Shown: in pieces, positions 2,598-52,849 of the stretch
Numbering within the stretch: the first letter of the stretch is position 1
How the letters are laid out: the number at the start of each line of letters is the position of its first letter
DNA from: Eledone cirrhosa
Taxonomy: Eukaryota
Direction: 5' to 3'
Length of the DNA: 64,000 nt
Assembly (NCBI GenBank): GCA_964016885.1
Contig: OZ024745.1
Coordinates: 86,986,001 to 87,050,000 of the forward strand
The notes under the pieces: generated by a model
What the model saw: the letters and a program-made list of their open reading frames with translations, nothing else
What the model was told of the DNA's origin: nothing
Database searches by the model: none
Program-made: the position numbers and the translations under genes

Positions 2598-4701
<2,104 letters not shown>

Positions 4702-11712: not shown

Positions 11713-11915
11713 TTGCAGTATCGGTAGAGCATCGGATACCATGTTCATGACATAGAGTTACGTCCCTTTACATTTAAAGTTCAAATCCCACAGAGGTTAA
11801 CTTTGCCTTTCATCCTTCCGTGGTTGATAAATTAAAGTACCAGTATCGATTTAATCAACTTTCCCCTCCCCACAAATTGTTGGCCTTATGCCTAAATAAG
11901 AAATCATTATTATTA
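11713..11915 (+). mobile_element. tRNA-derived SINE, 5'-eroded
   Basis: GCAGTATCGGTAGAG...AGTTCAAATCCC...GCCTTTCATCCTT...TGGCCTTATGCCTAAA, (TTA)n tail. Confidence 0.8.
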
Positions 11916-11922
11916 TCAAAAA

Positions 11923-13767: not shown

Positions 13768-14248
13768 CAAGAGAGAGAGAGAGAGAGGGGAAAGAAAGAA
13801 ATCAATAGGTTGTTAGAGGAAGGTCTTCAGAGAGAGCCATGATCAGAGAGAAAGAGATGAGAGAGAGTGAGAGAGAGATAGAGCATGGTAACAGGCAGAG
13901 AGAGAGGGAGAGAGAGGGGGAGATAGAGACGTATAGAACATGTAATGTACGGGCGCGAATGTGTGCGTGTGAATATGTGGGTCCATGTGTATGCGTATAT
14001 ATGAATGTGTGGGCGTGTGCACACGGGGGCAGGTATAGGAAAAGATATATATTAGCGTGTGTGAATGTGTAAACGTAAGAGATTATATCTCAATGTATCT
14101 GAATATATGAGCGTAAGAGTATGTGTGTGTGTGTGTTTGTGTGTGTATACATACATGTATGCATATGCACGTATAAGTATATCATCCTGTTTGTTTGCTC
14201 ATGTCTCAATCATTTTGTATATCTGGCTGTATGTTTGTCTATCTATCT

Positions 14249-14361
14249 ATGGGACATTACAAGACGTGACGGCGGGCGTTTTACATTATTAACGATTTTA
14301 TGTAAAACCCCCGCCGTCACCTCTTGTAATGTCCCATTTTTGTGCGCCCTTATGGCAAATA
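14249..14361 (+). mobile_element. Fold-back mini-element derived from the Tx1-like 3' end (copy 1)
   Basis: 38-bp inverted arms 14249-14286 / 14300-14337, then TTTTGTGCGCCCTTATGGCAAATA and (CTAT)n. Confidence 0.8.
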
Positions 14362-14379
14362 TCTATCTATCTATCTATC

Positions 14380-17300
14380 ACCTCTGCCACACACACCTTT
14401 TTCCCTACATACATGGGAAAAAGAACACAAAGAATAAACATCACCAATATACCACCCAACATTAACATCTAGTGGATTCTGGCAGGGTTCTTGGAGGAAG
14501 ATGAAGACACAATACTGTCGATTCAAAAATCCATAAGAAACACCTGGAACGGCACAAGCTTGGAAATGTTGGTCCAAATGAAACCGACAGAATTTCCAAG
14601 ATACCAGAAAGGGTGCCAGTAGACAATACAAACTATATACAGATTTCGGCAGAAGCAGGGAGGCGACATTGTTTTAAATGCGCGAGCACATCGCATTTAA
14701 AGGCCTCCTGTCCCCTCTTACGAACAAACACCACCACTCCCAAAAAGTACTTTTACCAACACCAACTCCCAAACCACAACAACAACAACACACAAAACAA
14801 GCAAACACACAAAAACAAACAACAGAAAAAACACAAACAATTCCCCTGAAAAACACAGTCCCACCCCATCCGACTCCATCCAACACTACCACAATCACAC
14901 TCACAAACACACCATCACCACACAACATACCCCTCCCACACGCCCATGGTGACGATTCATCACCAGACGAGGCTACTTCTCCATCCCCAAGTGAAGATGA
15001 AGGAGGGCCTCGTAAATCAAAAAAACAAATAAAGAGACACCACAAAGCCACAAAACAACAATCACCAACACAAACACACAACCACCAACACAAATAACAA
15101 CACAAACACCACCATAATACCCCCCCCTACTAGCAAAACAAACACCAACACCAACCCAAATACAAATGCCCACCATAAAAAAAACCTACAAAATGAACAA
15201 CAAACCTCCCGTCCCGAAAACAAACCACGACATCACTCCAAACACATACACCTACTACAAAACGAAAGCTCACACAAGAACAACAGACAAAAACCAACAC
15301 AACACAACAAGAACATTACACATACATAAACAGTGAAAACAAAACTTTAATGGAGGTCAACTCCCACGACGCTTCGGTGAAAACCGACGGAAAAAATTTT
15401 TCGAACTGTGAAGACAGACCTAATTTAAAGATGATTAGGGTCCCTACGGACACCTATAAGTCTTTAAAGGAAAACTTTAAAACACCCTCACCCCAGACAC
15501 CCCGCCCCATCAGACACCCCTCCGCACCAAATATCTCCGTCCCCACCCCACCGGAAACCACCACCCACCCAGACAACCCCTCCAACACCCCCATGGAAAT
15601 CGTGCAGCCTGGTCCCCAGGAGACGAAGGGTGAGTGATTTCTTTTCCTCTTCTTTTAACTGTTCAGCACCAACATGGCCAATATAAGAGTTGGGTGTGTG
15701 AATGTACGCAGCCTGGGGATGCCCTGGAAACAGAGAAAACTCTTAAACGACCTCAGGTCGCAAAGTATGGATGTAGCAGCCACTTGCGAGTCCAGGATCC
15801 ACAGCGAGCGACAGCTGGCCCCCATTTTCGACGACTTTGAGATCTACGCATATCTCTGTCAGCCGGGAGGTGGGGCGGGGTTGCCGTTTTGCTGCGGAAA
15901 CACCTGGACCTCGTAATACAGACGATAAATCTGGACGCGGAGAATCGACTGGTGGTCCTAGACATTGACGGTAGTGAAGGTGGAGCCTTCAGGCTGGTGG
16001 CCGCATATGCCCCATCCGGGACACCACGGCCAGACTTCTTCAAACGTCTAGAGACTTTTCTGGGAACGTCCTTCTCCTTGCTTTTAGTGGGGGACTGGAA
16101 TGGAATCCTAGATGCACGTTGGGACTATGGGGGAGCATGTCCCGATAAAAGGGGGTGTAACAGCCTCAAACAGTTAATCGGCCGATTTGACCTGGCCAAT
16201 AGATATCGACTAGATTTTCCGACTGTGCCACTGTGGACGTGGACTAATCGCAGCGGAACATCTAGATCGTACCTAGATAGGGTTCTAGTTAGAAATAAGG
16301 ATAGGGACATGTTAAGCTGTCCACAAATGTTCATGGTTGCCTATTCAGATCACAAACTAGTGACTTCATGCTCAACATTGAACCCATAGACAAGGACCCG
16401 GCTACTGGAAGCTGAACTTGTCGTTACCAACATGCAAAGCCTACAGTAGACGGATTAGCACTTTAGTTAAACAGCATTTGACAGGAGCCATTGTCGACAA
16501 CAGATGGTGGTATTCTCTCAAGAAGGCAGTTAGATTAGACTCGTTAATTTTTAGTAAAGAATTAGCGTTAAATAGAAATATGACCAAGAAGGAACTGATA
16601 GATAAAGTAGAAGAGGCAATTAGAAGTTTCAACGTAGCCAGCGTGCTAGCAACGAGAACGGCCTTGGACCAGTTCTTCGACGCAAAGCACAAGAGCTGCG
16701 TTGTCAGAAACAAAATACGGGCTCTGGGTAACGAGGGAGCCAAAGCTGTTAGCTGGGCCCGGGTGACGGAGGCAAAAAGTGGCAACAAGTCCACGATTCG
16801 GTCTTTGAAGGACCAAGACGCACGCGTAATACGTGAGCCGAAGCAGATGTGCGTGGCCTTTCAACGGCACTTTGCTCAGCTGTTCGGGCAGGGCGCCGCG
16901 CCAGGAGGGGCTATGGATTTCGGTCCATACCTCGACGGCCTACCGCGACTCTCGGACAGCGAGGCGAAGTTCTGCGAAAAGCCAATTTCAGCCGCTGAGA
17001 TAGAGGGGATGCGCTAAACCAATGCGGCAAACGCAAATCTCCAGGTCTCGACGGTCTACCCTACGAATTTTACGTAGCAATGCCAGACTTGTTCTCCGGT
17101 TTTCTGGAAGCGGACTACTGAAACTGGCAGCAGAACGGGAGAATTCCCAGTTCTGTGTCCAGGGGCGTAGTCACACTAGTCAGGAAGGACGAGAATAAGG
17201 GGGATGACATAGGCAACTTCCGGCTCATAACTCTGCTAAACAAAGAGTTACAGATTTTGGCCAAGGTGTTGGCAAAGTGGCTGGCGTTTGTCGTGTATGG

Positions 17301-18990
17301 ACCTGGTGGGAGAAGCGCAGACATGCGCAATCCCGACCAGGTCCATACACGACAACCTCCACCTCATGCGATACATCATAGAGAGGGTAGGGTGTAAACC
17401 CGGCTTCGGTGGGGACCTGATCAACTTGGATCAGATAAGGCTTTCGATAGGGTTGACCATCGTTACCTGGATGCAGTGCTTGAGGCGGCAGGCTTCGGAC
17501 CCGTGTTCAGGGGCTGGATTGCTGCAATGCACAACAGCAACATCTGCTCAAGGGTCAAGGTGAACGGCTACCTCTCGGAGCCGTTCCATATCACGCGAAC
17601 CATTCGACAGAGATGCCCTCTCTCCTCCCTTCTGTACGTACTGACTCTCGAGCCATTTCTGCGGAAGTTGGAGCTATTGCAGGGCATCTCTCTGGAACCG
17701 GGACTGCGGAAAGCGGCGTCGGCCTACGCCGACGACGTTACAGTAATGGTGTCGAGCACCTCGCAAATCGAGGAAGTTGGCACCTTCTGAAGGAATATGA
17801 ATGGTTCACAGGAGCGAAGCTGATCCGGGACAAGTCCATCGGTTTGTAACTCGGATCGTGGAAAGGCAAACCGATGCCTTCCGATGGCGTCGTCGGACGC
17901 TGGACGGAAGGACTGGTAAAGCTGCTCGGGTTCTGGTTTGGTCGGGACTTCCAGGTGGAGCAGAACTGGAACGAGGTGACGGCCAAGGTGTTTGCACTCA
18001 CCCGTGGAAGTGGACCGAGTGCAAACTATCCTTGAAAGGTCGAGCGGAGGTGGCGAACACTTTTATAGCCTCCGTCATCTACTACTGCATGACCGTCGTG
18101 CCTTTTCCAGCTAAAACGCTTACCAAAATGGAGCGCGCGCTCTTCCAATTCTTCGCAGCAAGTGCGACGACGCGCTCGGAGAAGCTCTAGGCGTAGAGGA
18201 AGACGAACTGGCCAGACTGTTCGGTAGGACTTTTCGCCCAGGACCGATGGACAACTTCCAAAAGTCCCTGGCCTGGCAGTGCTACTGAGCTCTAGCAGTT
18301 CAAGACAAGCTCTACAGACACGGGCGCCTTCGAAAAAGATCTGTCCGAGATGGGTGCGAGACGAAAAAACCGTCGCGCATGCATCCGTACACTGCCCGGG
18401 CGTTACCGACCTGTGGAGCTGTGTAGAACGACTATAGTCGCGGGTGGGACCAATCCGGTTGACCACCGAGTCCATTGTCATGATCAAACCTCAACCCTCC
18501 TTAAAAAACGAATGAGAGGCGGTTTTCCTTTGTGTGATAGCGAAAGAGGTTGTATGGTAGACAAGGTTAAAAGGGCTGAGGTCAGACACCTTTCTCTCCG
18601 GCCAACAACTAATTCTTTTTTTCAAATACCACTTTGGAAGAACAATCAGGATGGAAAGAGAGGTGTTGTACCCCAGCAATTTTTATGAAAGATGGGTGAA
18701 AGTGGCGAGAATGGCCTGAGTGAATGGGCCTTCGCTATATCAGCCTGTAGGTTGAGGAAAAAGAGGAAGAGAGGAAAGGGGTACAATCTCTTCGTACTCC
18801 TGGAGATGAGGGTTGCACATTTTTTTCGGGGGTGTGTGTTACCCATATGAAATGTCTCCCCCTATTGGGAAAATCGATTAACTTTTAAATTGCATTTGTG
18901 ATAATATTTTACACGTTTTTATTGTATGTAAACTTCCCCCTTTGAATTTTTGTCCCCTTCTTTTGTTCCCCTGTGGCTAATAAAGAAACA
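14380..18990 (+). pseudogene. Tx1-like unit E1: 5'-truncated, decayed; family C-like ORF1 middle with family A ORF2
   Basis: FFPTYMGK, CFKC..H..C knuckle; ORF2 from 15674 (MANIRVGCVNV) to 18750 with many frameshifts and a ~330-bp deletion at ~18153. Confidence 0.9.
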
Positions 18991-19011
18991 TATCTATCTA
19001 TCTATCTATCT

Positions 19012-21133
19012 GGAGGTGGCGAACACTTTTATAGCGTCCGTCATCTACTACCGCTTGACCGTCGTGCCATGTCCAGCCAAAACGCTCACAAAAATGGAGC
19101 GCGCGTCTCCCAATTCCTTTGGGAAACGGACTCCTTTGGTGAGAAGATCCATCTGCTGCCAACCCCCTTCAAACGGAGGGCTGGGGATGCCGTGTCTGAC
19201 GATGCGCAAACACGCGCTCAGGCTACGGCACCTCCACGTATTCCTCATCGGACAACCGGTGTTGGCCCCGTTCCTGAGGCGAGCCTTCCCACGACTCGTC
19301 TCGCTGACCGAGCTGCAGTCCTGGGTCAAGCAAAGACCGAGGAAAATGGGTACATCGAATGTGCTCAGGCGCTCACAGTCCCTCTATAGAGGGTTGGTCC
19401 GCAGCAAGTGCGACGACGCGCTCTGAGCCGTTCGCAATCACGCGTTCCATTCGACATGGGTGCCCTCCCTCCCCCATTCTGTATGTATTGACTCTAGAGC
19501 CACTACTGCGGAAACTGGCGCTAGAACCGGAACTGCGCAAAGTGGCATCGGCTTATGCCGACGACGTGACGGTAGTAGTGTCGAACACCTCGGAAATGGG
19601 GGTGATCGGCAACTTACTGAAAGAATGCGAAACGCTGACGGGAGCAAAACTAAACCCGGACAAGTCTGTCGGTTTCAACTCGGTACGTGGAGAGACAAAC
19701 CGATGACGTTCGACAGCGTCGTTGGACGCTGGACGGACGGACCAGTGAAATTGCTCGGGGTCTGTTTCGGTCCAGACCTCCAGGTGAAGAAAAACTGGAA
19801 CGAGGTCACGGCCAATGTGTTTGAGCTCACTCAGAACTGGGCAGAGTACAAACTGTCCTTGTAGGGTCGAGCGGAGGTGGCGAACGCTTTCATAGCGTCC
19901 GTCATCTACTACCGCTTGTCTGTCGTGCCTTGTCCCCGTGAACACCTCGCCAAGATGGAACGCATGCTCTTCCAGTTTCTGTGGAAGAAGCAAGCTCCAC
20001 TGGTGAGGAGATCCGTCTGCTGTGAGCACCCTTCAAACTACGGAATGCCGTGGTTGATGATGCACAAACATGCGCTGTGGCTGCGGCATCTCCAGGTATT
20101 CCTCACCGACCCCTAACCGGTGTGGGCACCGTTTGTCAGATAGGCTTTACCGCAGCCGTCTTGCTGACGGAGCTGCAGTCCTGGGTAAAACAAAGACCGG
20201 AAACGATGGGCGCCTGACACATTGAATGCGCTCAGGCGCTCACAATCCTCTGGCAAGCGGGCACAGCAATCAGTGGAGACTCCACTTCGACATTCTATAG
20301 TGGGATTGTACGTTACAAGGGCGATGACGTGCTCGGAGAGACTCTGAGCGTCGAAGACGATGAGCTCACTAGTCTGTTTGTTAGGACTTTCCGCCCGGGA
20401 CCTATGGACAACTTCCAGAAGTCCCTGGCCTGGCAGTGCTACGGAAGAGCTCTATCAGTTCGTGACAAGATCTACAGACACGGACGCCCCGGCAGGTATC
20501 CTTCCAAGAGGACGTGTCCAAGATGCGCGCAGGACATTGAAACAGCCCTGCACGCAATTGTACACTGCCCGGGCGTAACCGACCTGTGGAACTATGCAGA
20601 ACAACTGCTGTCGCGTATGGGACAAATCCAGTTGACTGCCGAGTCCATAGTAAGGATCAAACCGCCAGCCACTTTCAGCGGTTTTCCTCTGTACAGTGGC
20701 TATGGTGAAAGAGGTTATATGGTGGACGAGATTAAGAGGACTGAGGACAGATGCCTTTCTCTCCGGACAACAATTGATTCCCTTCTTTAAGTATCACTTT
20801 AGAAGGAGAATAAGAGTGGAGAGAGAGGCACTGCACCCCAGGGTGAATGAAGCGAAAATGGCCCGAGTGATTGGGCCTTCTCTGTTTATAAGCCTACAGG
20901 TTAAGGAAGAGAGCAAAAGGAAGAAGAGAGCACTTACACAACGCACTCCTGAAGTTAAGCGTTGTTCCATCGACGGGTATTAAACAACCCATTTGTGGCG
21001 CTTCCCCTCTATTGGGGATTTCTATTGTTATAATTGTTTGTTTTATATTTTTTACACGACTGTATGTAAAAGCCCCGGCATCTGTCTTTGTATTGTTCCC
21101 TTTTCTTGTGCGCCCTTGTGGCATATGATGAAA
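19012..21133 (+). pseudogene. Tx1-like unit E2: chimeric 3' fragment (family A piece fused to family C RT/3' end)
   Basis: 19012-19423 matches family A late ORF2; from 19424 it restarts upstream at EPF..RHGCP..YADD and ends with a 3' UTR like E6. Confidence 0.88.
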
Positions 21134-21146
21134 TCTATCTATCTAT

Positions 21147-24100
21147 AACTCACCAAAAATATTGAAAGTCGGACGGTCGTTTTCCGCACCATCAACAACA
21201 TCTCAAAAAAGCCACAACAACCAACACAAGCAGAAATTAAAGCGGTACTTAGAGAAGTACTTAATGAATCCACTTTCATAAGAAGAGACAGGCTCTATGG
21301 AAGCCTTGCCATTATTATGAAGAACGAATCGGCGGCAAAAAAATATGCTTTGTCGCCGAATCGTTCGACAAATTTTACCTTTTATCCATCTTATATGGGT
21401 AAAAGAACTCAGCGCATATGGCTGGATGCGATGATGCCAGATATGGACTACTGCTGGCTCATAGCTGGCTTCATTGATCCAGCGAATGACAACGTGATTT
21501 CCATTGGGAAAACCACAGGCAATGCGTTCAGTGGAACAGGTATAGAACTTGTAGTGCAAATGAAGCCTGAACGCATTGCCCAAATACCCGACAGAATCCT
21601 ATTAGAGGGCCACGGGTATATAAACATTAGCGTGGAGGGGAGAATGCCGTCCTGTCATATCTGTGCAGGCAGAGGGCACCTGAAGGCGGCTTGTCCCCAA
21701 CTCAACAAGAAGAAAACCCTGCTACCAACACCAGCTCCACCACCACCACAACAGATAAACAAACAACAAAACTCAGTCCTACCCAACCCGTCCGTCAGTA
21801 AAACTACACCACCACCACAGCACAAACAGACACAACACATTACCCAAAAACAAAACACAGTCCCACCCAACCCCTCACTCAATAAAACAACACAACCACC
21901 GCAGCCACAACACACAACACAGTCTAACATAGTGACACCCATCTCCTCCACAAAGAAAACTAACACGGAAACATTACCAGCAAACATACCTCTTCGCTCC
22001 AACACTGAAGATAACCCAACGAATTCGGAGGAAGAAACGGAGTCCTTCAGACAGATAAAAAGGAAAAAAAGAAAACATGTGCAAAACACACAAGGCCAAA
22101 CAGCCCCTACCCAAATGTCAACACAATTCAACAAAACACAAAACACCCCTCCAGCAACAAACAAAACCAAACCTGCCCCTCCCCTCTTCGAAACACTCAC
22201 ACCATCCGAAAAAATGACATTACACTATACTTACATCAACAGAAACAATAATAAATTAAATGAACTCATAAACAATAACCCTTCGGTACAAACCGAAGGG
22301 GTAAACTTTGTTACTTCAGAAAACTACCCACATTTAAAATTAATAAAGATCCCAATGAACCTCTACCAAAAAGTAAAAAAGGATTTTAAGGAGGACGTAG
22401 GACCACCCTCTGTCAAACCCATAAACCGCGTCCTCCTAAAAAGCTTTCCCCCACCCCTTTCCCTCCCCAACACAACTCCAAACACCCCAACCCCACCACA
22501 GACTGACGACCCCACACCACCACAAGACACCCCTTCACCCAACACCCCCGACCCCATGGAAGTCGTGCGACCCGAACCCCGGGAAGGAGAAAGGTAGGTC
22601 TCTACACTCTCCTTTGGTTTTGTCGCCCACATGGATGTGTTAAGAGTAGGATGTTTGAATGCACGTGGCCTGGGCTCAACTTGGAAGCAAGCAAAGAAAA
22701 CTAACACGGAAACATTACCAGCAAACATACCTCTTCGCTCCAACACTGAAGATAACCCAACGAATTCGGAGGAAGAAACGGAGTCCTTCAGACAGATTAA
22801 AAGGGAAAAAAGAAAACATGTGCAAAACACACAAGGCCAAACAGCCCCTACCCAAATGTCAACACAATTCAACAAAACACAAAACACCCCTCCAGCAACA
22901 AACAAAACCAAACCTGCCCCTCCCCTCTTCGAAACAGGTCACGTGGTATAAATGTAATGGTTATCTGTGAGACTCGGATCAGCGTCGTGCGGCAGCTGGC
23001 CCCTACCTTCGATGACTTTGAGGTGCACGCATCTCTCTGTCAACCTGGTGGTGGGGGTGGGGTTGTCGTACTGCTGGAAAAACACCTGGGTCTCGCCGTA
23101 CAGGTTGTTCACTCGGACCCGGAAGGTCGTTTGTTGGTGCTAGACGTTGGCAGTAGTGGAGGTGCGGCCTTGAGACTGGTCGCCGTATACTCCCCTTTCG
23201 GAGCTGAACGACCCGACTTCTTCCAGCGTCTGGAGACTTTTCTGGGAACGTCGCATTCCCTGCTTCTAGCGGGGGACTGGAATGACATCCTAGATGCACG
23301 TTGGGACTATGCAGGAGCATGTCATAATAGAGGGGGGGGGGTGTAACAGCCTCAAGGGTTTACTCGACCCTTTTAACTTGGTCGATAGATATCGACTAGA
23401 TTTTCCAACTGTGCCAACCTGGACTTGGACGAACCATAGTGGTCAATCTAGATCGTACTTAGATAGATTCTTAGTTAGAAGTAAGGATAGGGACATATTA
23501 AGCTGTCCAGAAATGCTCACGGTTAGCCAACCGTGAGCATTTCTGGACAGCTTAATATGTCCCTATACAGATCACAAATTAGTGACCTGCGTAGTCAACC
23601 TCGAGAGAACACATAGACAGGGTCCCGGTTACTGGAAACTTAATTTGTCTTTACCGGCAAAAGAGGCTTACAGAGACCGAATTAACAGATTAGTTAAGGA
23701 GAGGTTGACGGGTGCAATCGTCAACAACCGATGGTGGGCATCTCTCAAAAGAGAGATTAGAACAGAATAAATAAGTTATAGCAATATGTTAGCTGCCGAT
23801 AGGAATAGGAACGAGAAAGAATTAACAGGTAAATTAGAAGAGGCAATCAAGAGCGAAGATGTGGCCAGAGTGCTGGCATCGAGGACGGCCTTGAGCCAGT
23901 TTTTCGATGCAAAGCACGAAGGCTGCATCATTCGAAGTAAAATACGTGCTCTAGGTAATGAGGGGGCCAAAGAAGTTGGCTGGGCCCGCGTGACAGAAGC
24001 TAAGAGTGGAAATCGATCCACCATCCGGTCTTTGCAAGACGAGGATGGACGGGTGATCCGGGAGCCTAAGCAGATGTGCGAGGCCTTTCAAAGGCACTTT

Positions 24101-26507: not shown

Positions 26508-26566
<59 letters not shown>

Positions 26567-26795
26567 CTCTCTCTATCAGTCGTGTGTCACTTCGCGGAGA
26601 AGTTTCCGTTAATTTATGTAAGAAAAAAAACGTGAGTTTTTAGTTCAATTTTATATCATTGTGTAACTTGACCACCCGTCTGGACCTTCAGGTGGTGGGT
26701 CAACTCATTTTCGCCCCTTCAGGGGCGGAATATCCATTTAAAAAATTTTTCTCCATCGAATCTTGGAAAAAATATTGTAAAATTTTGATTACGTT

Positions 26796-28712: not shown

Positions 28713-28746
28713 TCTCTTTTTCCTCTTTTAACTTTTCAGCACCAGC

Positions 28747-32184: not shown

Positions 32185-32423
32185 GTTGAGGAAAAGGAGG
32201 AGGAGAGGAAAGGAGTACAAGCTCTTCGTACTCCTGGAGATGAGGGTTGCACATTTTTTTCGGGGGTCTGTGTTACCCATATAAACTGTCTCCCTCTATT
32301 GGGGAAAATCGACTAACTTTTAAATTCCATCTGTGATAACATTTTACACGTTTTTATTGTATGTAAACTTCCCCCTTTGTATTTGTCCCCTTCTTTTGTG
32401 CCCCTGTGGCTAATAAAGAAATA

Positions 32424-32472
<49 letters not shown>

Positions 32473-32697
32473 CTCTATCAGACGTGTGTCACTTCGCGGA
32501 GAAGTTTCCGTTAATTTATGTAAGGAAAAAACGTGAGTTTTTAGTTCAATTTTATATCATTGTGTAACTTGACCACCCGTCTGGACCTTCAGGTGGTGGG
32601 TCAACTCATTTTCGCCCCTACAGGGGCGGAATATCCATTTAAAAAATTTTTCTCCATCGAATCTTGGAAAAAAATATTGTAAAATTTTGATTACGTT

Positions 32698-34614: not shown

Positions 34615-34647
34615 TCTCTTTTCCTCTTTTAACTTTTCAGCACCAAC

Positions 34648-38085: not shown

Positions 38086-38323
38086 ATTGAGGAAAAGGAG
38101 GAGGAGAGGAAAGGAGTACAAGCTCTTCGTACTCCTGGAGATGAGGGTTGCACATTTTTTCGGGGGTATGTGTTACCCATATAAACTGTCTCCCTCTATT
38201 GGGGAAAATCGACTAACTTTTAAATTCCATCTGTGATAACATTTTACACGTTTTTATTGTATGTAAACTTCCCCCTTTGTATTTGTCCCCTTCTTTTGTG
38301 CCCCTGTGGCTAATAAAGAAATA

Positions 38324-38381
<58 letters not shown>

Positions 38382-38426
38382 GCTATCTAGCTATCTATCT
38401 ATCTATCTATCTATGTCTCTTTCTGT

Positions 38427-41400: not shown

Positions 41401-43379
41401 GATAGGGTTTAGCAGAGAGTTAGCCTTAGAGCAAAACACAATATAAAGAGAACTAGTAGCCAAGGTAGAGGAGGCACTTAGAAGTGGCAATGCGGCTAGA
41501 GTGTTAGCGTCGAGAACGGCACTGGACCAGTTCTTCGATGCGAAACATGAAGGCTGCGTGGTCAGAAGCAAAACACGTGCTCTAGGAAATGAAGGAGCGA
41601 AAGCTGTCAGCTGGGCCTGAGTGGCGGAGGCAAAAAGTGGCAACAAGTCCACGATTCGGTCTTTGAAAGATCAAAACGGGCGCGTGCTACTTGAGCCCAA
41701 GCAAATGTGTGCGGCCTTTCAGCAGCATTTTGCGCGACTGTTTGACCAGAACGATGATGAGCCGAACGAGGCAATGGACTTTGGTTCATACCTCGACGGC
41801 AGGCCGTCGAGGTATGCGAACACGGACGGCGAGTTTTGCGATAGACCAATCACGGACACTGGGCCGCTGCGGGAAACGCAAGTCACCCGGTCTAAATGGT
41901 CTACCTTATGAGTTTTAAATAGGCATGCCGGACGGAAGCTGGACGGACGTACCCGTGAAATTGCTCGGGGTCTGGTTCGGGCCAGACCTCCAGGTGGAGA
42001 AAAAGTGGAACGAGGTCACGGACAAGTGGTTTGCACTCACCCAGAAGTGGGCAGAATGCAAACTGTATTTGAAAGGTCGAGCGGAGCTGGCGAACACTTT
42101 CATAGCGTCCGTCAACTACTACCGCTTGACTGTGGTGCCTTGTCCCCGTGAACACCTCGCCAAGATGGAACGCATGCTCTTCCAGTTTCTGTCGAAGAAG
42201 CAGGCTCCGCTGGTGAGGAGATACGTCTGCTGTCAGGACTCTTCTAACGGAGGGTTGAGAATGCCGTGGCTGATGATGCGCAAACATGCGCTGAGGCTGC
42301 GGCATCTCCAGGTATTCCTCACCGACCCCCAACCGGTGTGGGCACCGTTTGTGAGACAGGCTGTCCCATAGCTCGTCTCGCTGACGGAGCTGCAGTCCTG
42401 GGTCAAGAAAAGACCGAAAACGATGGGCGCCTGGCACATTGAATGCGCTCAGGCGCTCACAGTCCTCTGGCAAGCGGACCAGGCGATCAGTGGAGACTCC
42501 ACTTCGACATTCTATAGAGGGATTGTACGTTACAAGGGCGAAGACGTGCTCGGAGAGACTCTAGGCGTCGACGACAATGAGCTCACCCGTCTGTTTGGTA
42601 GGACTTTACGCCCGGAACCTATGGACAACTTCCTGAGGTCCCTGGCCTGGCAGTGCTACCGGGTAGATTTACCGGTTCGTAACAAGATCTACAGGCACGG
42701 ACGCCCCGACAGGGATCCTTCCAAGAGGACGTGTCCAAGATCCGCGCAGGACATTTAAACAGTCCTGCACGCAAGTGTACACTGCCCGTGCGTAACCGAC
42801 CTGTGGAACTATGCAGAACAACTGCTGTCGCGTATGGGACAAATCCAGTTGACCGCCGAGTCCATAGTAAGGATCAAACCGCCAGCCTCTTTCAAAAACG
42901 AAAGAGAGGCCTTTTCCTCTGTACGGTGGCTATGGTGAAATAAGTTATATGGTGGACGAGATTGAGAGGTCTGAGGACAGATGCCTTTCTCTCCCGACAA
43001 CAATTGATTTCCTTCTTTAAGTATCACTTTAGAAGGAGAATCAAAGTGGAGAGAGAGGCACTGCACCCCAGTAAATTTACTGAAAGGTGGGTGAATGAAG
43101 CGAAAATGGCTCGAGTGATTGAGTGTTCACTGTTGATAAGCCTGTAGGTTGAATAAGAGAGCAAAAGGAAGAAAGGAGCACTTGCACAACACGCTCCTAG
43201 AGTTGAGGGGTGTTCTATCGACGGGGTATTAAACAACCCATTTGTGGCGATTCCCCCTGTTGGGGATTTCGATTGTTGTAATTGTTTGTTTTTATATTTT
43301 TTAGACGACTGTATGTAAAATCACCGGCATGTCTTTGTATTGTCACATTTTCTTGTGCGCCCTTGTGGCAAATAAAGGA

Positions 43380-43380
<1 letters not shown>
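38427..43380 (+). pseudogene. Tx1-like unit E6 (family C): 5' end present, decayed, RT core deleted
   Basis: ORF1 remnants 38632-40491, ORF2 ATG at 40534 (MASLRVGSVNV) to 43147; ~800 bp including YADD missing at ~41933. Confidence 0.9.
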
Positions 43381-43452
<72 letters not shown>

Positions 43453-43453
43453 C

Positions 43454-46400
43454 CAGACGTGTGCAACTTCGCGGAGAAGTTTCCGTTAATTTATGTAAGA
43501 AAGAAACGTGAGTTTTCAGTTATATTTTATATTATTGTGTAACTTGACCCCCCGTCTGGACCTTCAGGTGGTGGGTCAACTCATTTTCGCCCCTACAGGG
43601 CAGAAATATTCGTTTGAAAATTTTTTTCTACATCGAATTTGGGAAAAAATATCGTAAGAAGTTTGATTACATTATGAACGCTACGTTCGACAATAATGTT
43701 GGTGGATAGTCGGTAAGACTACATAGCTCGCAGTCAACATCGTCTTCTTCCCATTGCTTCTCAATAGATACTATGGAGATGGAAAGACGAAATGAAATTG
43801 TAAAAACAAATTCATATCCAAACAACACAAATGACACTAAACAGTACAATGACAACAAAAATAACAACAACACCAATAATTATGATAAAAACAACAATGA
43901 CAACAACAACAAAGAAAAAAATAAAGACAACACCAATAATACCAGCATCAAAGACAACAACAACACCAAGGAAAATACGAACAATATCAACATCAGTGAC
44001 AACAAGAATAACAACAACAATAACAACAATAATGACAACACCACCAACACGGATAATTCCACAAAGAAACCAAAAATCTCCTTTGCACAGACAGTTCAGA
44101 AAAAGGAGGAACTGACAAATCTCGACATAACAAATGCCGAACAACTTTTAAAGGACGCTGGGAGATATGTTACTTTCGAAAAGAATGGTGCTTTCAGCAT
44201 CAATTCTCCGGTAGAAATTCGCAAGGAAACTGCTCTCAAACGATAGTTTTTAGGACAGTTTCCAATTCTACCCGAAAACCAGTCCAATTGTCACAGAAAG
44301 AAATTGAACTGGTTTTCAAAAATTCAATGAATGACATTTCATTCATTCAAAGAAGCAAACTCTTTGGGAGTATTTCGGTACTCATGAAGGATCAATTGAC
44401 GGCCCAAACTTACTCTGTATCGCCAATTATATCCAAACTGTATACCTTTTCCCCTACATACATGGGAAAAGGACACAAAAGATTAGAATCACGAGTGTCA
44501 CACCAAAGGTAAACATATGGTGGATACTGTGCGGCTTCATCAATTTTGATGAAGACAGAATACTTTCTGTAGGAAAGTCCCCCAGAGTGTATTCAATGGG
44601 ACTAGCGTTGAAGTTCTGGTGCAAATGAGCCCAGAGCGAATAGCTATGATCCCACAACGTGTACTCCTGGACGGACTTAACTACATACACTTTTCGGTTG
44701 AGGGTAGCCGGCTTTCATGTTACCACTGCTTTAGCAGGGGTCACCTGAGGTCTTCCTGTCCTAAATTAATGAGTAAAAAAAGGGCGATGGATTGGCAGTA
44801 TCGGTAGAGGGTCGGACGCCATGCTTTCCAGCATAGTTACGTCCCTTTACGATCTGAGTTCAAATCCCGCCGAGGTTGACTTTGCCTTTCATCCTTACGG
44901 GGTCGATAAAATAAAGTACCAGTAATGCACTGGGTAATTGCTGGCCTTGTGCCAAAAGTAGAAACAATTAATGAGTAAAAAAAGACTCTTCTGCCGACAC
45001 CCATCAAAATAACACAACCACCAACACCACCACCACAACAAAAACACCAACACACAAAAATAACCACACAAACACAGTCCCACCCAACCCCACTCCACCT
45101 AAAACCACTGCAAAATCACATACAGACACAACAGCTCCCCAAGACATACCCCTCCCCAATCACACAGACGATACAACAGATGAGGCTATCTCGCCATCAC
45201 CTAGTGAAGACGAGGGAGAACCCCATCGCTCGAAAAGAAAGAAAAGACATCACAAAAGCAAAAAACTAGCAAACACTACCACAAACATACAACCACCAAC
45301 ACAAACAACAAAAACATCACAAACAAAACCCCCACCTCCTGAAAACAAAATATCTACAACAAAACGAAAGCACACACAAGAACTACAGACAAAAACAAAC
45401 ACAGCACAAGAAAATTACACTTACATAAACTGAAAACAAAACACTAATGGAACACATCTCAAAGAACAATTCGGTGAAAACCGAAGGGAAAACTTTCGCC
45501 CACTCTATTAAAAATAACAAAAAACTGAACCTAAAATTGATTACAAACTTATAGGTCCCCAAAAGAAACATTTGAAAAGGATGTGGGGAATTCCTGCGTG
45601 AAACCACTTAACCACGTCCTTCTCAAATGTCTCCCCACATCAGACACCCTCATCCCACCAGTCCCCACCCCACCAAACATCTCCGTCCCCACCCCACCGG
45701 AAACCACCACCCACCCAGACAACCCCTCCAACACCCGCATGGAAATTGTGCAGCCTGGTCCCCAGGAGACGAAGGGTGAGTGATTTGGTTTCCTCTTTTA
45801 ACTTTTCAGCACCAACATGGCCAGTATAAGAGTTGGATGTGTGAACGTACGCGGCCTGGGGATGCCCTGGAAACAGGGCAAACACTTAAACGACCTCAGG
45901 TCGCACAGTATGGATGTAGTAGCCATTTGCGAGTCCAGGATCCACAGCGAGCGACAGCTAGCCCCCATATTCGATGACTTTGAGATCTACGCATCACTCT
46001 GTCGGCCGGGGGGTGGGGGCGGGGTTGCCGTTTTGCTGCGCAAACACCTGGGCCTCTTAACACAGACGGTACATCTAGACCCGGAGGGTCGACTGGTGGT
46101 CCTAGACGTAGACGGTAGTGAAGGTGGAGCCTTCAGGCTGGTGCCTGCATATGCCCCATCCGGGACACCGCGGCCAGACTTCTTCAAACGTCTAGACTTT
46201 TCTGGGAACGTCCCGCTCCTTGATTTTAGTGGGGGACTGGAATGGATTCCTAGATTCACGTTGGGACTATGTGGGAGCATGCCCCGATAAAGGGGTGTGT
46301 AACAGCCTCAAACAGTTAATCGACCGATTTGACCTGGCCGATAGATATCGACTAGATTTTCCGACTGTGCCACTGTGGACGTGGACTAATCGCTGCGGAA

Positions 46401-49335
46401 CATCTAGATCATACCTAGATAGGGTTCTAGTTAGAAATAAGGATAGGGACATGTTAAGATGTCCACAAATGTTCATGGTTGCCTATTCAAAACACAAACT
46501 AGTGACCTGCATGGCCAACCTTCATATAACACATAGACAAGGACCCGGCTACTGGAAGCTGAACTTGTCATTACCGTCATGCAAAGCCTACAGTAGACGG
46601 ATTATCACTTTAGTTAAACAGCACCTGCCAGGGGCCATTGTCAACAACACATGGTGGTACTCTCTCAAGAGGGCAGTTAGATTAGACTCGTTAGTTTTTA
46701 GTAAAGAATTAGCCTTAGAGAGAAATAGAACCGAGAAGGAACTGGTAGATAAAGTAGAAGAGGCAATTAGAAGTGGAAACGTAGCCAGCGTGCTAGCAAC
46801 GGGAACGGCCTTGGACCAGTTCTTCGACGCAAAGCACGAGGGCTGCGTTGTCAGAAGCAAAATACGTGATATGGGAAACGAGGGAGCCAAAGCTGTTAGC
46901 TGGGCCCGAGTGACGGAGGCAAAAAGTGGCAACAAGTCCACGATTCGGTCTTTGAAGGACCAAGACACACGCGCGATACGTGAGCCGAAGCAGATGTGTG
47001 CGGCCTTTCAGCGGCACTTTGCTCAACTGTTCGGGCAGGGCGGCGCGCCGGGAGGGTCTATGGATTTCGGTCCATACCTCGACGGCCTACCGCGACTCTC
47101 GGACAGCGAGGCGAAGTTCTGCGAAAAGCCGATTTCAGCCGCTGAGATAGGGGACGCGCTGAGCCAATGCGGCAAACGCAAATCTCCAGGTCTCGACGGT
47201 CTACCCTACGAATTTTACGTAGCAATGCCGGACTTATTCTACGGTCTCCTGGAAGCGGTCTACTGCAACTAGCAACAGAACGGGAGAATTCCCAGTTCTG
47301 TGACCGGGGGCGTAGTCACACTAGTCAGGAAGGGCGAGAATAAGGGGGATGACATAGGCAACATCCGGCCCATAACTCTGCTAAACACAGAGTTACAGAT
47401 TTTGGCCAAGGTGTTGGGAAAGAGGCTGGCGTTTGACGTCGAGAACCTGGTGGGAGAAGCGCAGACATGCGCAATCCCGACCAGGTCCATACACGACAAC
47501 CTCCATCTTATGCGCTACATCATAGAGAGGGTAGGGTGTTAACCCGGCTTCGATGGGGCCCTGTTCAACTTGGATCAGTCTAAGGCTTTCGATAAGGTTG
47601 ACCATCGTTACCTGGATGCGGTGCTCGAGGCGGCAGGCTTCGGACCCGTGTTCAGGGCTGGATTGCTGCAATGCACAACAGCAACATCTGCTCAAGGGTC
47701 AAGGTGAACGGCTACTTCTCGGAGCCGTTCCATTTCACGCGATCTATTCGACAGGGATGCCCTCTTTCCTTCCTTCTGTACGTACTGACTCTCGAGCCAC
47801 TACTGCGGAAGTTGGAGCTATTGCAGAGCATCCCTCTGGAACCGGGACTACGGAAAACAGTTATGGTGTCGAGCGCCACGCAAATCGAGGAAGTCGGCAC
47901 CTTACTGAAGGAATACGAAAGTTTCACAGGAGCGAAGCTCAACCGGGATAAGTCCATCGGTTTGCAACTCGGATCGTGGAGAGGCAAACCGATGCCTTCC
48001 GATGGCGTCGTCGGACGCTGGACGGAAGGACTGGTAATGCTGCTTGGGGTCTGGTTTGGTCCGGACCTCCAGGTGGTGAAGAACTTTTATAGCGTCCGCC
48101 ATCTACTACCACTTGACCGTCGTGCCTTGCCCTGCTAAAACGCTCACCAAAATGGAGCGCGCGCTCTTCCAATTCCTTTGGCTCCTTTGGTGGGAAGATC
48201 CATCTGCTGCCAACACCCTTCCAACGGAGGGCTGGGGTTGCCAGGCTGACGATGCGCAAACCAGCGCTCAGGCTGCGGCATTTCTACGTATTCCCCACCG
48301 GACAACCGGTGTGGGCCTCGTTCGTGAGGCGAGCCTTCCCACGACTCATCTCGCTGACCGAGCTGCAGTCCTGGTCAAGCATAGACCGAGGAAAATGGGC
48401 GACTAGCACATCGAATGTGCTCAGGCGCTCACAGCTCTCTGGCAGGCGGACCAGGCGATCAGTGGAGACTCCACTTCGTCATTCTATAGACGGTTGATCC
48501 GCAGCAAGTGTGACGACGCGCTCGGAGAAGCTCTAGGCGTAGAGGAAGATGAACTGGCCAGTCTATTCGGTAGGACCTTCCGCCCGGGACCGATGGACAA
48601 CTTCCAAAAGTCCCTGGCCTGGCAGTGCTACCGAGGAGCTCTACCAGTTCGAGACAAACTCTACAGACATGGGCGCCCGGGCAGGGACCCTGCAAAAAAA
48701 TTCTGCCCGAGGTGCGTGCGAGACGAAGATACCGTCGCGCACGCATTCATACACTGCTCGGGCGTCACTGACCTGTGGGGCTATGTAGAACGACTATTGT
48801 CGCGGGTGGGAACAATCCGGTTGACCACCGAGTCCATTGTCATGATCAAACCGCCACCCTCCTTCAAAAACGAGGGAGAGGCGGTTTTCCTTTGTGTGAT
48901 AGCTATGGCGAAAGAGGTTGTATGGTGGATAAGGTTGAAAGGGCTGAGGTCAGACACCTTTCTCTCCGGCCAACAACTGATTCTTTTGAATCAGGATGGT
49001 GAGAGAGGTGCTGTACCCCAGGAAGTTTTATGAAAGGTGGGTGAAAGTGGTGAGAATGGCCCGAGTGAATAGGCCTTCTCTCTACATCAGCCTGTAAGTT
49101 GAGGAAAAGGAGGAGGAGAGGAAAGGAGTACAAACTCCTCGTACTCCTGGAGATGAGGGTTGCACATTTTTTCGGGAGTACGTGTTACCCATATGAACTG
49201 TCTCCACCTATTGTGGAAAATCGACTAATTTTTAAATTGCATTTGTGCTAATATTTTACACGTTTTTATTGTATGTAAACTTCCCGCTTTGTATTTGTCC
49301 TCTTCTTTTGTGCCCCTGTGGCTAATAAAGGAACA
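43454..49335 (+). pseudogene. Tx1-like unit E7 (family A), full-length but decayed
   Basis: Same 5' end CAGACGTGTG; ORF1 43674-45783 and ORF2 45817-49097 with stops and frameshifts; SINE insertion in ORF1. Confidence 0.93.
44783..44965 (+). mobile_element. tRNA-derived SINE (short subfamily) inserted in E7 ORF1
   Basis: 19-bp TSD AATTAATGAGTAAAAAAAG at 44764-44782 and 44966-44984; nearly identical to the copy at 56873-57053. Confidence 0.93.
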
Positions 49336-49358
49336 TATCTATCTATCTATCTATCTAT

Positions 49359-49534
49359 TTGAGGTTTGTTCTATCTACGGGGTATAAAGCAAACCATTTG
49401 TAACGCCTCCCCCCTATTGGGGATTTCCATTGTTATATTTTCATGTTAAAACCTTTTTACACGTCTGCATGTAAAATCCCCGCCATATGTCTTTGTATTG
49501 TCCCCTTTTCTTGTGCACCCTTGTGGCAAAGAAA
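49359..49534 (+). mobile_element. Tx1-like unit E8: 3' UTR-only insertion (C/D-like)
   Basis: CCCCTATTGGGG, ATGTAAAATCCCCG, CCCTTGTGGCAAAGAAA, between (CTAT)n tracts. Confidence 0.82.
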
Positions 49535-49561
49535 TCTATCTATCTATTTATCTATCTATCT

Positions 49562-49679
49562 ATGGGATATTACAAGACGTGACGGCGGGAGTTTTACATT
49601 GTTAAAGAATTATGTAAAACCCCCGTCGTCACGTCTTGTAATGTCCCATTTTTGTACGCCCTTGTGGCAAATAAAGAAA
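49562..49679 (+). mobile_element. Fold-back mini-element derived from the Tx1-like 3' end (copy 2)
   Basis: 38-bp inverted arms 49562-49599 / 49612-49649, then CCCTTGTGGCAAATAAAGAAA and (CTAT)n. Confidence 0.8.
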
Positions 49680-49692
49680 TCTATCTATCTAT

Positions 49693-52640
49693 AGGGATCC
49701 AAAGCTGTTAGCTGGGCCGGAGTGACAGAGGCGAAAAGTGGCAACAAATCCAGAATTCGGTCTTTGCAAGACATGGACAGATTCTACTTGAATCTGCCCT
49801 TCCAGCAGCATTTTGCACAATTGTTCGGGCAAAGCGGTACGTCGGGTGAAATAGAAGATGTCTTAAGCCGCTGCGGGAAACGCAAATCACCCGGTTTAGA
49901 TGGTCTACCCTATGATTTTTACATAAGCATGCCAGACATGTTATCTGGCGTCCTCGAAGCCGTCTACTGCAACTGGCAGCAGAACGGGAGGATTTCCAGT
50001 TCTGTAGGCAGAGGTGTAGTAACGCTGATCAGGAAAGATGAGAACAAGGGGGATCAGATAAGCAATTTCAGGCCCATAACTCTGCTCAACACAGAGTTAA
50101 AGATTTTGGCCAAGGTGTTAGCAACAAGACTGACACTAGTCTTCGAGAACCTGATAGGGGAAGCGCAAACGTGTGCAATCCCGAGCAGGTCCATACACGA
50201 CAACCTCCACCTCATGCGATACATCTTAGAGAGGGTAGGATGTAAACCTGGCTTCGGTGGGCTCTGATCAATTTAGATCAGTCTAAGGCATTTGGTAGGG
50301 TCGACCATCAATACTTGGAAGCGGTTCTCAAGGCGGTCAGCTTCGGTCCCGTTTTCAGAGGCTGGATAGCTGCCATACACACCAGTATCTGCTCGGCAGT
50401 CAAGGTGGATGGTACCTATCGGAGCCATTCGAAATTATGCGTTCCATCCGTCAGGGATGCCCCCTCTCCTCCATTCTGTATGTACTAAATCTCGAGCCAT
50501 TACTGCGGAAGTTGGAGTTATAGCAGGGCATCCCGATCGAACCAGGACTGCGGAAAGCAGCATCGGCCTATGCCGACGACGATATAACCTTAATGGTGTC
50601 GAACACCTCGGAAATCGGGGTAATCGGCAACCTATTACAGGAATACGAAATGTTGACAGGAGCAAGACTAAACCCAAACAAGTCTGTCGGTTTGCAACTC
50701 GGCACATGGAGAGGCAAACCCATACCTTCCGACAGTGTCGTTGGACTCTGGACGGAAGGGCCGGTGAAATTACTCGGGGTCTGGTCTGGTCCAGACCTCC
50801 AGGTGGACAAGAACTGGAACGAGGTCATGGCGAAGGTGTTTACACTCATCCAGAAGGGGGCTGAGTGCAAACTCTCACTGAATGGTCGAGCGGAGATGGC
50901 GGACACTTACATAGCTCCGTCATCTACTACCGCTTGACAGTCGTGCCTTGTCCCCGCGAATACCTCACCAAAATGGAACGCCTACTCTTCAAGTTCCTCT
51001 GGAAGAAACAGGCTCCATTGGTGAGGAGCTCCATCTGCTGTCAACACCCTTCTAACGGAGGGCTGGGTATGCCGTGGCTGATGATGTGCAAACACGCGCT
51101 AAGGCTACGCCATCTCCAGGTATTCCTGACCGGTGAACCGGTGTGGCTGTCGTTTGTGAGACAAGCTCTTCCACAACTCGTCTCACTAACAGAGCTGCAG
51201 TCCTGGGTCAAGCGAAGACCGAAAATGGGTGCCTGGCACCTCGAGTGCTTTCAGGCGCTCACAGCTCTCGACCAAGCGGAAACGGCAATCAGCGGAGACT
51301 CCTCTTCGACATTCTATAGGGGATTAGTGGAGGATAAGTGCGACGACGTTCTCGGGGAAACTCTGGGCACCGAGGAGGACGAACTGACCAGTCTGTTCGG
51401 GAAGACTTTGTGTCCAGGGCCTTTGGATAACTTCCAGAGGTCTCTGGCCTGGCAGTGCTACCGAGGAGCTCTACCAGTTCTAGACAAAATCTACAGGCAC
51501 GGACGCCCTGGCAGAGATCCTGCCAAAAGGACCTGTCCAAGATGCGAGCAGGACATCGAAACCGTTCTGTACACAATTGTTCAGTGCCCAGGGGTGACCG
51601 ACCTGTGGAATTATGTTGAACAGCTACTGTCACGTGTGGGACGCATCCAGTTGTCAGCCGAGTCCATCATGAGGATCAATCCGCCCTCTTCATTTAAGAA
51701 TGAAGGAGAGGCGGTTTTCCTCTGTTTGGTGTCTAGGGCGAAAGATGTTATATGGTGGACGAGCTTAAAAGGACTGAGGGCAAACACCTTTCTCTCCGGA
51801 CAATAACTTATCCCCTTCTTTAAGTACCACTTCAGAAGGAAGGTGAGAGTGGAGAGAGAAGTGCTACACGCCAGTAAATTAGCTGAAAGGTCGGTGAATG
51901 TGGCGAAAATGGCCCGAGAGAATGGGCCTTCTCTGTATATAAACCTGCAAGTTGAGGAAGATAAACAGAGGGAAGACGGGAACACCTACAAAACGTGTTC
52001 CTGGTGTTGAGGGTTGTTCTATCCACGGGGTGTAAAACTACCCTGCAGTAACTTTCCCCCCTATTGGGGATTTCAATTTTTATTTTATTATATACGAGAA
52101 CAAAAGTTACTATTTTACAGCTTAGTATTGTAGAAAACTGACTGTTTTCAAACTTTATACATGTAATACTTATGTTTCGAATTTCAAATTTTCAATGCCC
52201 TAGGGACCGCATTAGGCGATTTAGCGATCTCTCTCCGTAATGCAGACAGTCAGACATACAGACAGATATTATAAGGGCCGACGTTATATGTATGTATCTA
52301 TCTAAAAAGAGAAAGACTAAGAATTATAGAGAGAGATCGCTAAATCCCCTAATGCGGACCCTAGGGCATTGAAAATTTGAAATTTCTTTTGCTCAGAACA
52401 CTCCCTGAAACATAAGTATTACATGTGTAAAGTCTGAAAACAGTCGGTTGGGTGCTTCTTGAGGTTTAGGGATTCAAACTCACACACACACAGACAGACA
52501 TCCTCAGTTTTATATATATAATAATATAGTTTATTGTTATTTATTAATGTTAAAGTTATATGATTTTTATGTAAAACCCCCGCCGTCACGTCTTGTAATG
52601 TCCCATTTTTGTACGCCCCTGTGGCAAATAAAGAAAGGTA
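49693..52640 (+). pseudogene. Tx1-like unit E10 (family D): 5'-truncated ORF2, 3' UTR interrupted
   Basis: KSPGLDG, FRPITLLN, YADD, CPRC; stops and frameshifts; 3' end GTGGCAAATAAAG followed by a degenerate (CTAT/CTGT)n tail. Confidence 0.9.
52088..52530 (-). mobile_element. Insertion in E10 3' UTR, possibly a non-autonomous Helitron-like element with internal inversion
   Basis: Minus-strand end TATATATAAAACTGAGGATGTCTGTCTG matches TCTATATATATAAAACTGAGGTTGTCTGTCTG at ~62558; inverted segments ~52140-52235 / 52329-52446; boundaries approximate. Confidence 0.45.
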
Positions 52641-52849
52641 TCTATCTATCTATATACCTGTCTGTCTATCTATCTGTCTGTCTGTCTATCTATCTGTCTG
52701 TCTATCTGTCTGTCTGTTTGTCTACCTGTCTATCCATCTCTCTCACTACAACACATAATTCAATCCAAAATTGACATTTGACTGATCGTTGTAGTAGTAG
52801 TAGGTGTTGTTTGACTATTAACATTTCAATTCAGTTTAATTTCAATTTA

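What the first reader, a model, noticed from the sequence alone, without database searches (positions are those of the whole stretch)
14237..52745. 38-kb self-perpetuating array of (CTAT)n/GATA-targeting Tx1-like retrotransposons
Seen: ~11 units from at least 4 divergent families and of different ages, all in one orientation. Both full-length and variably 5'-truncated units begin directly after a (CTAT)n tract and end in (CTAT)n rather than poly(A). No Tx1 unit sits inside another as a clean insertion. Established: the Tx1 clade includes sequence-specific members (Xenopus Tx1L; Kibi and Koshi in TC/TTC microsatellites; Keno in U2 snRNA genes). Inference: this lineage's APE targets (CTAT)n, each insertion regenerates a target, and one microsatellite grows into a multi-family landing pad. 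The youngest copies are central, so growth is internal, not polar. I do not know of a described GATA-specific lineage, but could not check.
Basis: partly seen in the sequence, partly recalled or inferred. Interest (0 to 1): 0.85.

Follow-up and report, generated by a model that had tools for sequence, protein, structure and literature searches.

The report
Stacked LINEs that target GATA repeats
Eleven pieces of four related jumping-gene (LINE) families sit head to tail in one GATA repeat; elsewhere in this genome about three in four of their truncated copies also follow a GATA repeat, so they likely aim at it and re-create a target with each landing, a known habit with a target I did not find described.

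Summary
Confirmed. Twelve (CTAT)n tracts separate eleven co-oriented units of four L1/Tx1-type LINE families (73-81% alike) over 38.5 kb; two central units are intact. Corrections: (1) the tract is mostly duplicated target, not an encoded tail. Elements stop at AATAAAGAAA plus 0-2 bases, followed by 10-23 bp duplications that mostly start at C^TATCT. (2) The array is not exceptional: 19 of 20 sampled young copies have a same-strand neighbour, and one lies in an array of about 48 kb. (3) Growth is not by insertion alone: a fold-back mini-unit found at three places in the genome occurs twice here. Endonuclease specificity, empty sites and strict Tx1-clade placement were not shown. Microsatellite-targeting Tx1 elements and stacking at regenerated target duplications are in print; ten searches found no GATA target. 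The scan already noted this lineage on other DNA (e1-9510316, e1-9514738). New variant of a known kind.

The parts
14238..14251 (+). Left-most CTAT tract (T0)
14252..14359 (+). U1: fold-back mini-unit made of a family D 3' end with an inverted copy in front; 90.7% identical to U10
14380..18990 (+). U2: 5'-truncated recombinant unit (ORF1 part of another family joined to an A-like body; the joint recurs at about five other loci); internal deletion
19011..21132 (+). U3: A-like ORF2 piece (to about 19425) joined without a tract to a 5'-truncated C-like unit
21147..26506 (+). U4: family B, 5'-truncated by about 700 bp, 245-bp internal duplication of ORF1 sequence
26567..32423 (+). U5: full-length young family A unit
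26781..28712 (+). U5 ORF1, stop-to-stop frame of 643 aa, one CCHC knuckle (Pfam zf-CCHC E 0.24, below cut-off)
28732..32184 (+). U5 ORF2, stop-to-stop frame of 1150 aa: APE endonuclease, reverse transcriptase, zf-RVT
32472..38323 (+). U6: full-length young family A unit, both ORFs intact; 28 differences from U5, an independent insertion
38415..43379 (+). U7: full-length family C unit, decayed, about 800-bp internal deletion
43452..49335 (+). U8: full-length older A-type unit, frameshifted, with a SINE-like insert at 44783-44965 (19-bp duplication)
49359..49533 (+). U9: 175-bp 3' end of a C-like unit
49564..49678 (+). U10: second copy of the fold-back mini-unit
49693..52638 (+). U11: 5'-truncated family D unit with an inverted-repeat element in its 3' UTR (about 52085-52520)
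52639..52743 (+). Right-most tract (T11), degenerate CTAT/CTGT

Best explanation
This is a head-to-tail stack of four related L1/Tx1-type LINE families that likely insert by target-primed reverse transcription at C^TATCT sites in (CTAT)n/(GATA)n repeats and so likely leave a fresh target on each side of every new copy. Shown: the CTAT bias of 5' flanks genome-wide, the single orientation, 10-23 bp target duplications, no poly(A) and no obligatory CTAT tail. Inferred: the APE endonuclease nicks the GATA strand; reverse transcription starts just past AATAAAGAAA on an RNA whose next bases (family-specific TA, CA or GA, then UAUCU) can pair with the nicked target; any tract of the stack can take the next copy, so ages are mixed. 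A smaller share of growth comes from duplication inside the stack: U1 and U10 likely stem from one event, copied either as an unusually long (about 130 bp) target duplication between two tracts or by unequal exchange.
For: 5' flank with two or more tandem CTAT units in 26 of 30 independent truncated family A copies, 15 of them with no element tail upstream; 4 of 5 for B; 11 of 16, 10 of 14, 10 of 13, 17 of 22 and 7 of 10 for the sets found with U7, U8, U2, U11 and U3; total 85 of 110 against 118 of 57,000 background positions. (AT)n tracts outnumber CTAT tracts 259 to 3 in the background, yet 1 of 30 A copies sits in (TA)n. Duplications holding unique sequence at L009, L070, L146, L153, L157, L160, L215, L004 and at full-length B copies such as L193, L197, L200, L202, L207 (read by eye). 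Poly(A) of 8 or more after AATAAA in 1 of 246 distinct 3' ends, TATCT/TCTAT/ATCTA within 4 nt of GAAA in 223 of 246. U5 and U6 are each closer to copies elsewhere than to each other. Fold-back pattern at 3 places genome-wide, 2 in this array.
Against: 25 of 110 truncated copies lack a CTAT 5' flank, among them (TA)n, (CA)n and (TTTC)n sites, so the preference is not strict. No empty site was seen, so 'pre-existing tract' is inferred from duplications. The start of the duplication at TATCT is partly built into my search, which began at the 3' junction; only 27 of 109 copies gave a duplication not explained by a pure tract, and many of these are impure tracts. Each genome search scored only its 40 best candidates. 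Flanks cannot separate endonuclease choice from RNA-target pairing.
Confidence: 0.8

Rival explanations
1. The endonuclease is loose and the target is chosen by pairing of the RNA 3' end (UAUAUCU, read through from the donor's own tract) with whatever nick exposes a GATA end. The array would grow the same way; only the source of specificity differs.
For: No poly(A) is copied and the start point on the RNA is fixed right at TATCT, after a family-specific dinucleotide. An off-target site in (TA)n can pair with UAUAU (L004). Pairing of RNA with the nicked target is proposed for SART1Bm and R1Bm (PMC7265360, passages).
Against: The base before the duplication is C in 20 of 27 cases, and most targets carry further CTAT units upstream of the duplication, which pairing of the primer alone does not require. 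PMC4494074 states that target choice is mainly set by the endonuclease (passages).
Confidence: 0.25
2. The array was built mainly by unequal exchange or tandem duplication of one or two insertions, as a satellite is.
For: U1/U10 duplication; a 7.3-kb block repeated at 99.5% about 15.8 kb apart in the C1:134.0 Mb array; a run of 587-bp pieces sharing one breakpoint at L005.
Against: The units here belong to four families with different 5' breakpoints and ages; U5 and U6 carry variants of different sublineages; apart from U5/U6, U1/U10 and the 245-bp repeat inside U4, long alignments between units reach 94% at most.
Confidence: 0.07
3. The 5' tracts are made by the element itself (template jumps to CTAT-bearing RNA, or slippage), so there is a tail but no targeting.
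For: Full-length A copies carry their own CTATCT(CT)nATCAG start even where no tract precedes it (L059). For that reason full-length copies were left out of the count.
Against: At sites with unique target duplications the CTAT units lie upstream of, and in phase with, duplicated host sequence, and at off-target sites no tract is added on either side (L004, L193).
Confidence: 0.05
4. Assembly artefact (expanded or mis-joined repeats).
For: Two adjacent units are 99.5% alike.
Against: Their 28 differences include variants shared with other loci; all other units are distinct; like arrays occur on other contigs.
Confidence: 0.01

Closest known systems
Kibi (TC)n, Koshi (TTC)n and crocodilian Tx1 families in (TTCC)n/(TTTC)n (PMC4494074, passages; PMC3812793, passages)
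   Same: APE-type LINEs of the L1/Tx1 group that insert into a microsatellite; PMC4494074 calls a family target-specific from 20% of flanks, and these families reach 69-87%.
   Different: Target is (CTAT)n/(GATA)n, absent from the targets named in the passages read (ACAY, AC, TC, TTC, TAA, TTCC, TTTC); host likely an octopod (nearest named protein Argonauta hians, 67% over the RT region); kinship with the fish group unresolved. Figure 3 and the supplements of PMC4494074, Repbase and Dfam were not seen.
Tandem TEs by double insertion at a regenerated target (R1 array, jockey, P element; PMC5932611, passages)
   Same: [quoted passage not shown]
   Different: Here four families share one landing site over a span of ages, and stacking is the usual state (19 of 20 sampled copies).
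SART1Bm and R1Bm (PMC7265360, abstract and passages)
   Same: APE LINEs aimed at a short repeat or fixed site; RNA-target pairing proposed to set the start of reverse transcription.
   Different: R1 clade; SART1Bm needs and copies a poly(A) tail, whereas these copies show poly(A) in 1 of 246 ends; target is an interstitial microsatellite, not the telomere or rDNA.
Mammalian L1
   Same: Best solved-structure match for ORF2 (E 7e-50, against 7e-20 for R2); target duplications, 5' truncations, occasional 5' inversions.
   Different: L1 has a weak TTAAAA preference (PMC3812793, passage) and a poly(A) tail; ORF1 here has a CCHC knuckle, which mammalian L1 ORF1 lacks (recalled).

Membership tests
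APE-type non-LTR retrotransposon, L1 group (L1 plus Tx1) | ORF2 with N-terminal APE endonuclease, RT and C-terminal zinc motif, preceded by ORF1; no LTRs | tested here: met
   Pfam Exo_endo_phos 27-232, RVT_1 517-760, zf-RVT 981-1037; one alignment over residues 5-861 to human L1 ORF2p
APE-type non-LTR retrotransposon, L1 group (L1 plus Tx1) | Marks of target-primed reverse transcription: 5' truncation, target duplications | tested here: met
Tx1 clade | Groups with Tx1L, Kibi, Koshi, Keno on an RT tree | tested here: inconclusive
   Quick IQ-TREE, 70 rows, no outgroup: window families plus P0003 and Argonauta P0157 form a clade (100), sister to unnamed proteins at about 50% (100); the branch that places them against the fish group holding BAC82621 and BAD04856, and against the group holding L1-like P0070, has support 68. 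That those two accessions are Tx1-clade deposits is recalled; no call names them so.
Tx1 clade | ORF1 with gag-like CCHC knuckle (recalled) | tested here: inconclusive
   CX2CX4HX4C at 350-363 in P0001, Pfam zf-CCHC E 0.24; no match to the ZCCHC3-type RNA-binding domains that the fish relative P0044 carries
Microsatellite-specific LINEs (Kibi/Koshi type) | One repeat type in more than 20% of flanks (rule in PMC4494074) | tested here: met
   85 of 110 truncated copies; background 0.21%
Microsatellite-specific LINEs (Kibi/Koshi type) | [quoted passage not shown] | not testable with these tools
   Needs a nicking assay; only the junction pattern C^TATCT was seen
Tandem TE array by repeated insertion | Independent 5' breakpoints and target sequence at each joint | tested here: met
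   exceptions are the U1/U10 pair and the tract-less joint in U3
Telomere-type polar array (HeT-A/TART, SART/TRAS) | Chromosome end and age gradient | tested here: not met
   Array lies at 87.0 Mb of a 134.7-Mb contig; ages are not graded

The most novel reading that the evidence does not exclude
An octopod LINE lineage has a GATA-specific endonuclease and primes without poly(A) on read-through target RNA; its multi-family stacks of 20-50 kb act as nurseries where neighbouring families swap ORF1 and launch recombinant families such as the one U2 belongs to, and the young intact family offers a ready site-directed insertion tool for cephalopods.
Probability: 0.25. Interest if true: 0.6.

Novelty: new variant of a known kind. 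Interest (0 to 1): 0.38.

Why it matters
It adds a tetranucleotide, GATA, to the short list of repeats aimed at by APE-type LINEs, in a mollusc, with intact and very young copies (0.0-0.2% from their nearest relatives) that can be assayed at once. The mechanism by which these elements pick microsatellites is called poorly understood in PMC3812793; a tail-less family with a sharp start point separates endonuclease choice from RNA-target pairing more cleanly than poly(A) elements do. For genome work it explains long LINE pile-ups and unstable GATA markers in such genomes. It does not change the known picture of how tandem TE arrays arise.

Tried and rejected
Empty-site search: Logan contigs laid on the array's left edge and on solo copy L027 gave no contig bridging an empty site; no verdict. 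RNA: no RNA holder listed. Conservation of the target in distant relatives: a metagenome scan with P0007 found nothing; the alignment scan gave 73 loci, best segments 21-49% identical, none with three or more CTAT units, but most are short contigs of other lineages, and no DNA was available for the unnamed group at about 50%. Flank tally for the 29 other loci found with U10 was dropped because the pairwise method ran into tracts. Rows left out of the 85-of-110 count: 72 copies whose 5' end lay outside the first-fetched DNA (24 B, 12, 14, 6, 7, 9), 2 with 5' inversions, 4 A copies repeating another's breakpoint, 6 full-length A copies; 20 of the 24 B copies were then fetched and most proved full length. 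ESM Atlas gave only generic APE-RT clusters. Folding of three 3' ends gave no unusual stability (z -0.7 to +1.1). The careful tree did not finish; U4's long branch comes from frameshifts. Literature: ten searches showed no GATA- or TATC-specific LINE; the supplements of PMC4494074 could not be read, and Kojima and Fujiwara 2004, Repbase and Dfam were not seen, so a named family there is not excluded.

Full report
Observation. Twelve CTAT tracts between 14238 and 52743 bound eleven units, all on the + strand. U5 (26567-32423) and U6 (32472-38323) have intact ORF1 and ORF2; ORF2 has APE, RT and zf-RVT domains and its best solved relative is human L1 ORF2p, E 7e-50, far ahead of R2. The units fall into four families 73-81% alike. 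U5-U8 are full length; U2, U3, U4, U9 and U11 are 5'-truncated; U1 and U10 are about 110-bp fold-backs of a family D 3' end. The window lies at 87.0 Mb of contig C5 in a 3.0-Gb genome; the nearest named protein is from Argonauta hians, so the host is likely an octopod.

Targeting test. Full-length A copies carry a CTAT-like start of their own (L059), so only 5'-truncated copies were counted. Searches with six 3' ends and one stretch near the 3' end of U11 each scored their 40 best candidates out of 721 to 4375; I took all 40 for A and the top 19 or 29 non-self loci for the others. A flank counted if two tandem CTAT units lay within 30 nt upstream of the junction (or ran up to a few nt into it). 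Family A: 40 hits, 36 independent, 30 truncated, 26 positive, 15 of them with no element tail upstream. B: 4 of 5. Sets found with U7, U8, U2, U11, U3: 11 of 16, 10 of 14, 10 of 13, 17 of 22, 7 of 10. Total 85 of 110; the rows left out are listed under Tried and rejected. In 20 arbitrarily placed 10-kb stretches the rule (30 nt upstream) fired at 118 of 57,000 positions, and CTAT tracts were rare (3, against 259 AT and 30 AC tracts). The misses are real: (TA)n at L004, (CA)n at L068, (TTTC)n at L135, unique DNA at L030 and L072.

What the tract is. Where the site is not a pure tract, the element ends at AATAAAGAAA plus a family-specific dinucleotide or none, and host sequence seen on the 5' side follows at once: 18 bp at L009, about 23 at L070, 17 at L157, 14 at L160, 10 at L146, and 15-20 bp at several full-length B copies (by eye). 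27 of 109 copies gave such a duplication; the base before it was C in 20, and it began TAT in most, the latter partly by design of the search. No tract is added at L004 or L193. A poly(A) run followed AATAAA in 1 of 246 distinct 3' ends. So the tracts are mostly duplicated target, the step that lets one site take copy after copy. Whether the endonuclease, RNA-target pairing or both pick the site cannot be told from flanks; pairing is proposed for SART1Bm and R1Bm (PMC7265360, abstract and passages).

How this array grew. U5 and U6 differ at 28 sites, and U6 shares several with a copy on C1, so they are separate insertions. Lowest mismatch to any other fetched copy is 3.9% (U2), 4.4 (U3), 1.7 (U4), 0.0 (U5), 0.1 (U6), 5.3 (U7), 2.2 (U8), 9.3 (U9), 5.1 (U11), from best segments of up to a few kb, so rough. 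The youngest are central, but an old unit sits beside them: no polarity, insertion at any tract. Young A copies lie in longer pure tracts (12 of 40 with eight or more 3' units) than older sets (0 to 3 of 19-29), which fits either decay of tracts or a taste for long ones. The exact fold-back pattern occurs at three places in the genome, two of them U1 and U10, with the same start; one event was therefore likely copied within the array, either as a long duplication between two tracts, in which case U2-U9 grew between the two copies, or by unequal exchange. U2's mosaic of one family's ORF1 and an A-like body recurs at about five of 39 other loci, while most others stop at the joint, so it moved as a recombinant family.

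How unusual. Of 20 A copies (every second hit), 19 had a neighbouring unit by a lenient rule that allows 1.3-kb gaps and probably overcounts by one or two; matches were nearly all on the same strand, and 4 ran to the edge of the 10 kb fetched. Followed further, these gave stacks of roughly 13, 21, 24 and 48 kb; the last holds a 7.3-kb block repeated at 99.5%. The 38-kb array is thus a large but ordinary member of its kind.

Against the known. PMC4494074 (passages) names Tx1L, Keno, Kibi (TC)n, Koshi (TTC)n and crocodilian families in (TTCC)n/(TTTC)n, and has no GATA or TATC in its main text; PMC3812793 (passages) lists ACAY, AC, TC, TTC and TAA; PMC4640811 (passages) adds (TG)n for another clade. 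Two octopus repeat papers mention L1-Tx1 only as a class (PMC13282606, PMC8967140; passages). PMC5932611 (passages) describes tandems made by repeated insertion at regenerated target duplications and later unequal exchange. PMC4889948 (one passage) lists BAD04856 without a family name. Ten searches found no GATA-specific LINE, but Repbase, Dfam, Kojima and Fujiwara 2004 and the figures and supplements of PMC4494074 were not seen. The tree places these families with Argonauta and an unnamed group at about 50% identity, and does not resolve them against fish Tx1-like or L1-like proteins. Earlier notes of this scan describe the same lineage in this genome and another; my reading was written before I saw them, and they are not independent support.

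Verdict. Real and well supported as a GATA-preferring LINE lineage whose copies stack; the novelty is the target and the tail-less 3' end, not the array. New variant of a known kind, interest 0.38.

Noticed in passing
window 28705-28745: Intron-like GTGAGT, pyrimidine run and CAG between the end of ORF1 and the start of ORF2; earlier notes of the scan discuss it.
   Followed up: no
window about 32396-32412 and all 3' ends: A GCC-N5-GGY three-pair hairpin sits just before AATAAA in most of 246 ends; the regex that collected the ends fixed one pair, so this is partly circular.
   Followed up: partly
L005/L006, G000:C2:142.86 Mb: At least five 587-bp 3' pieces with one shared breakpoint in tandem, one followed by a 33-A run: local amplification after insertion.
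   Followed up: partly
G000:C1:134.02-134.07 Mb (L400, L420, L432-L434): Array of about 48 kb with block duplications, and a 99.5% family A stretch that continues an older, 83% unit without a tract between.
   Followed up: partly
L014, L015, L065, L094, L212, L300: A recurring downstream sequence after a short tract (beginning CTTGATAGAGTAAG) is probably the 5' end of a further family not present in this window.
   Followed up: no
window 44783-44965; also about 1472-1629, 11712-12038, 56688-57059, 58856-59052, 61733-62059: Abundant SINE-like repeat; the copy in U8 has a perfect 19-bp A-rich duplication.
   Followed up: partly
window 52085-52520: Inverted-repeat element (62- and 43-nt arms) in the 3' UTR of U11, MITE-like.
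   Followed up: partly
window 6619-8363: Decayed, unrelated RT-bearing element on the + strand (RVT_1 E 2.7e-7; weak zf-RVT).
   Followed up: no
window 2601-3954: About 590-bp inverted repeat (94%) bounded by (TA)n tracts, likely a fold-back DNA transposon.
   Followed up: no
L084 (C5:89.87 Mb) and L450 (C2:204.10 Mb): Other fold-backs of the family D 3' end with longer arms than U1/U10.
   Followed up: partly
L179 (G000:C2:150.00 Mb): A distant relative (about 72% to family A) on the - strand in one of the 20 background stretches; its flanks were not read.
   Followed up: no
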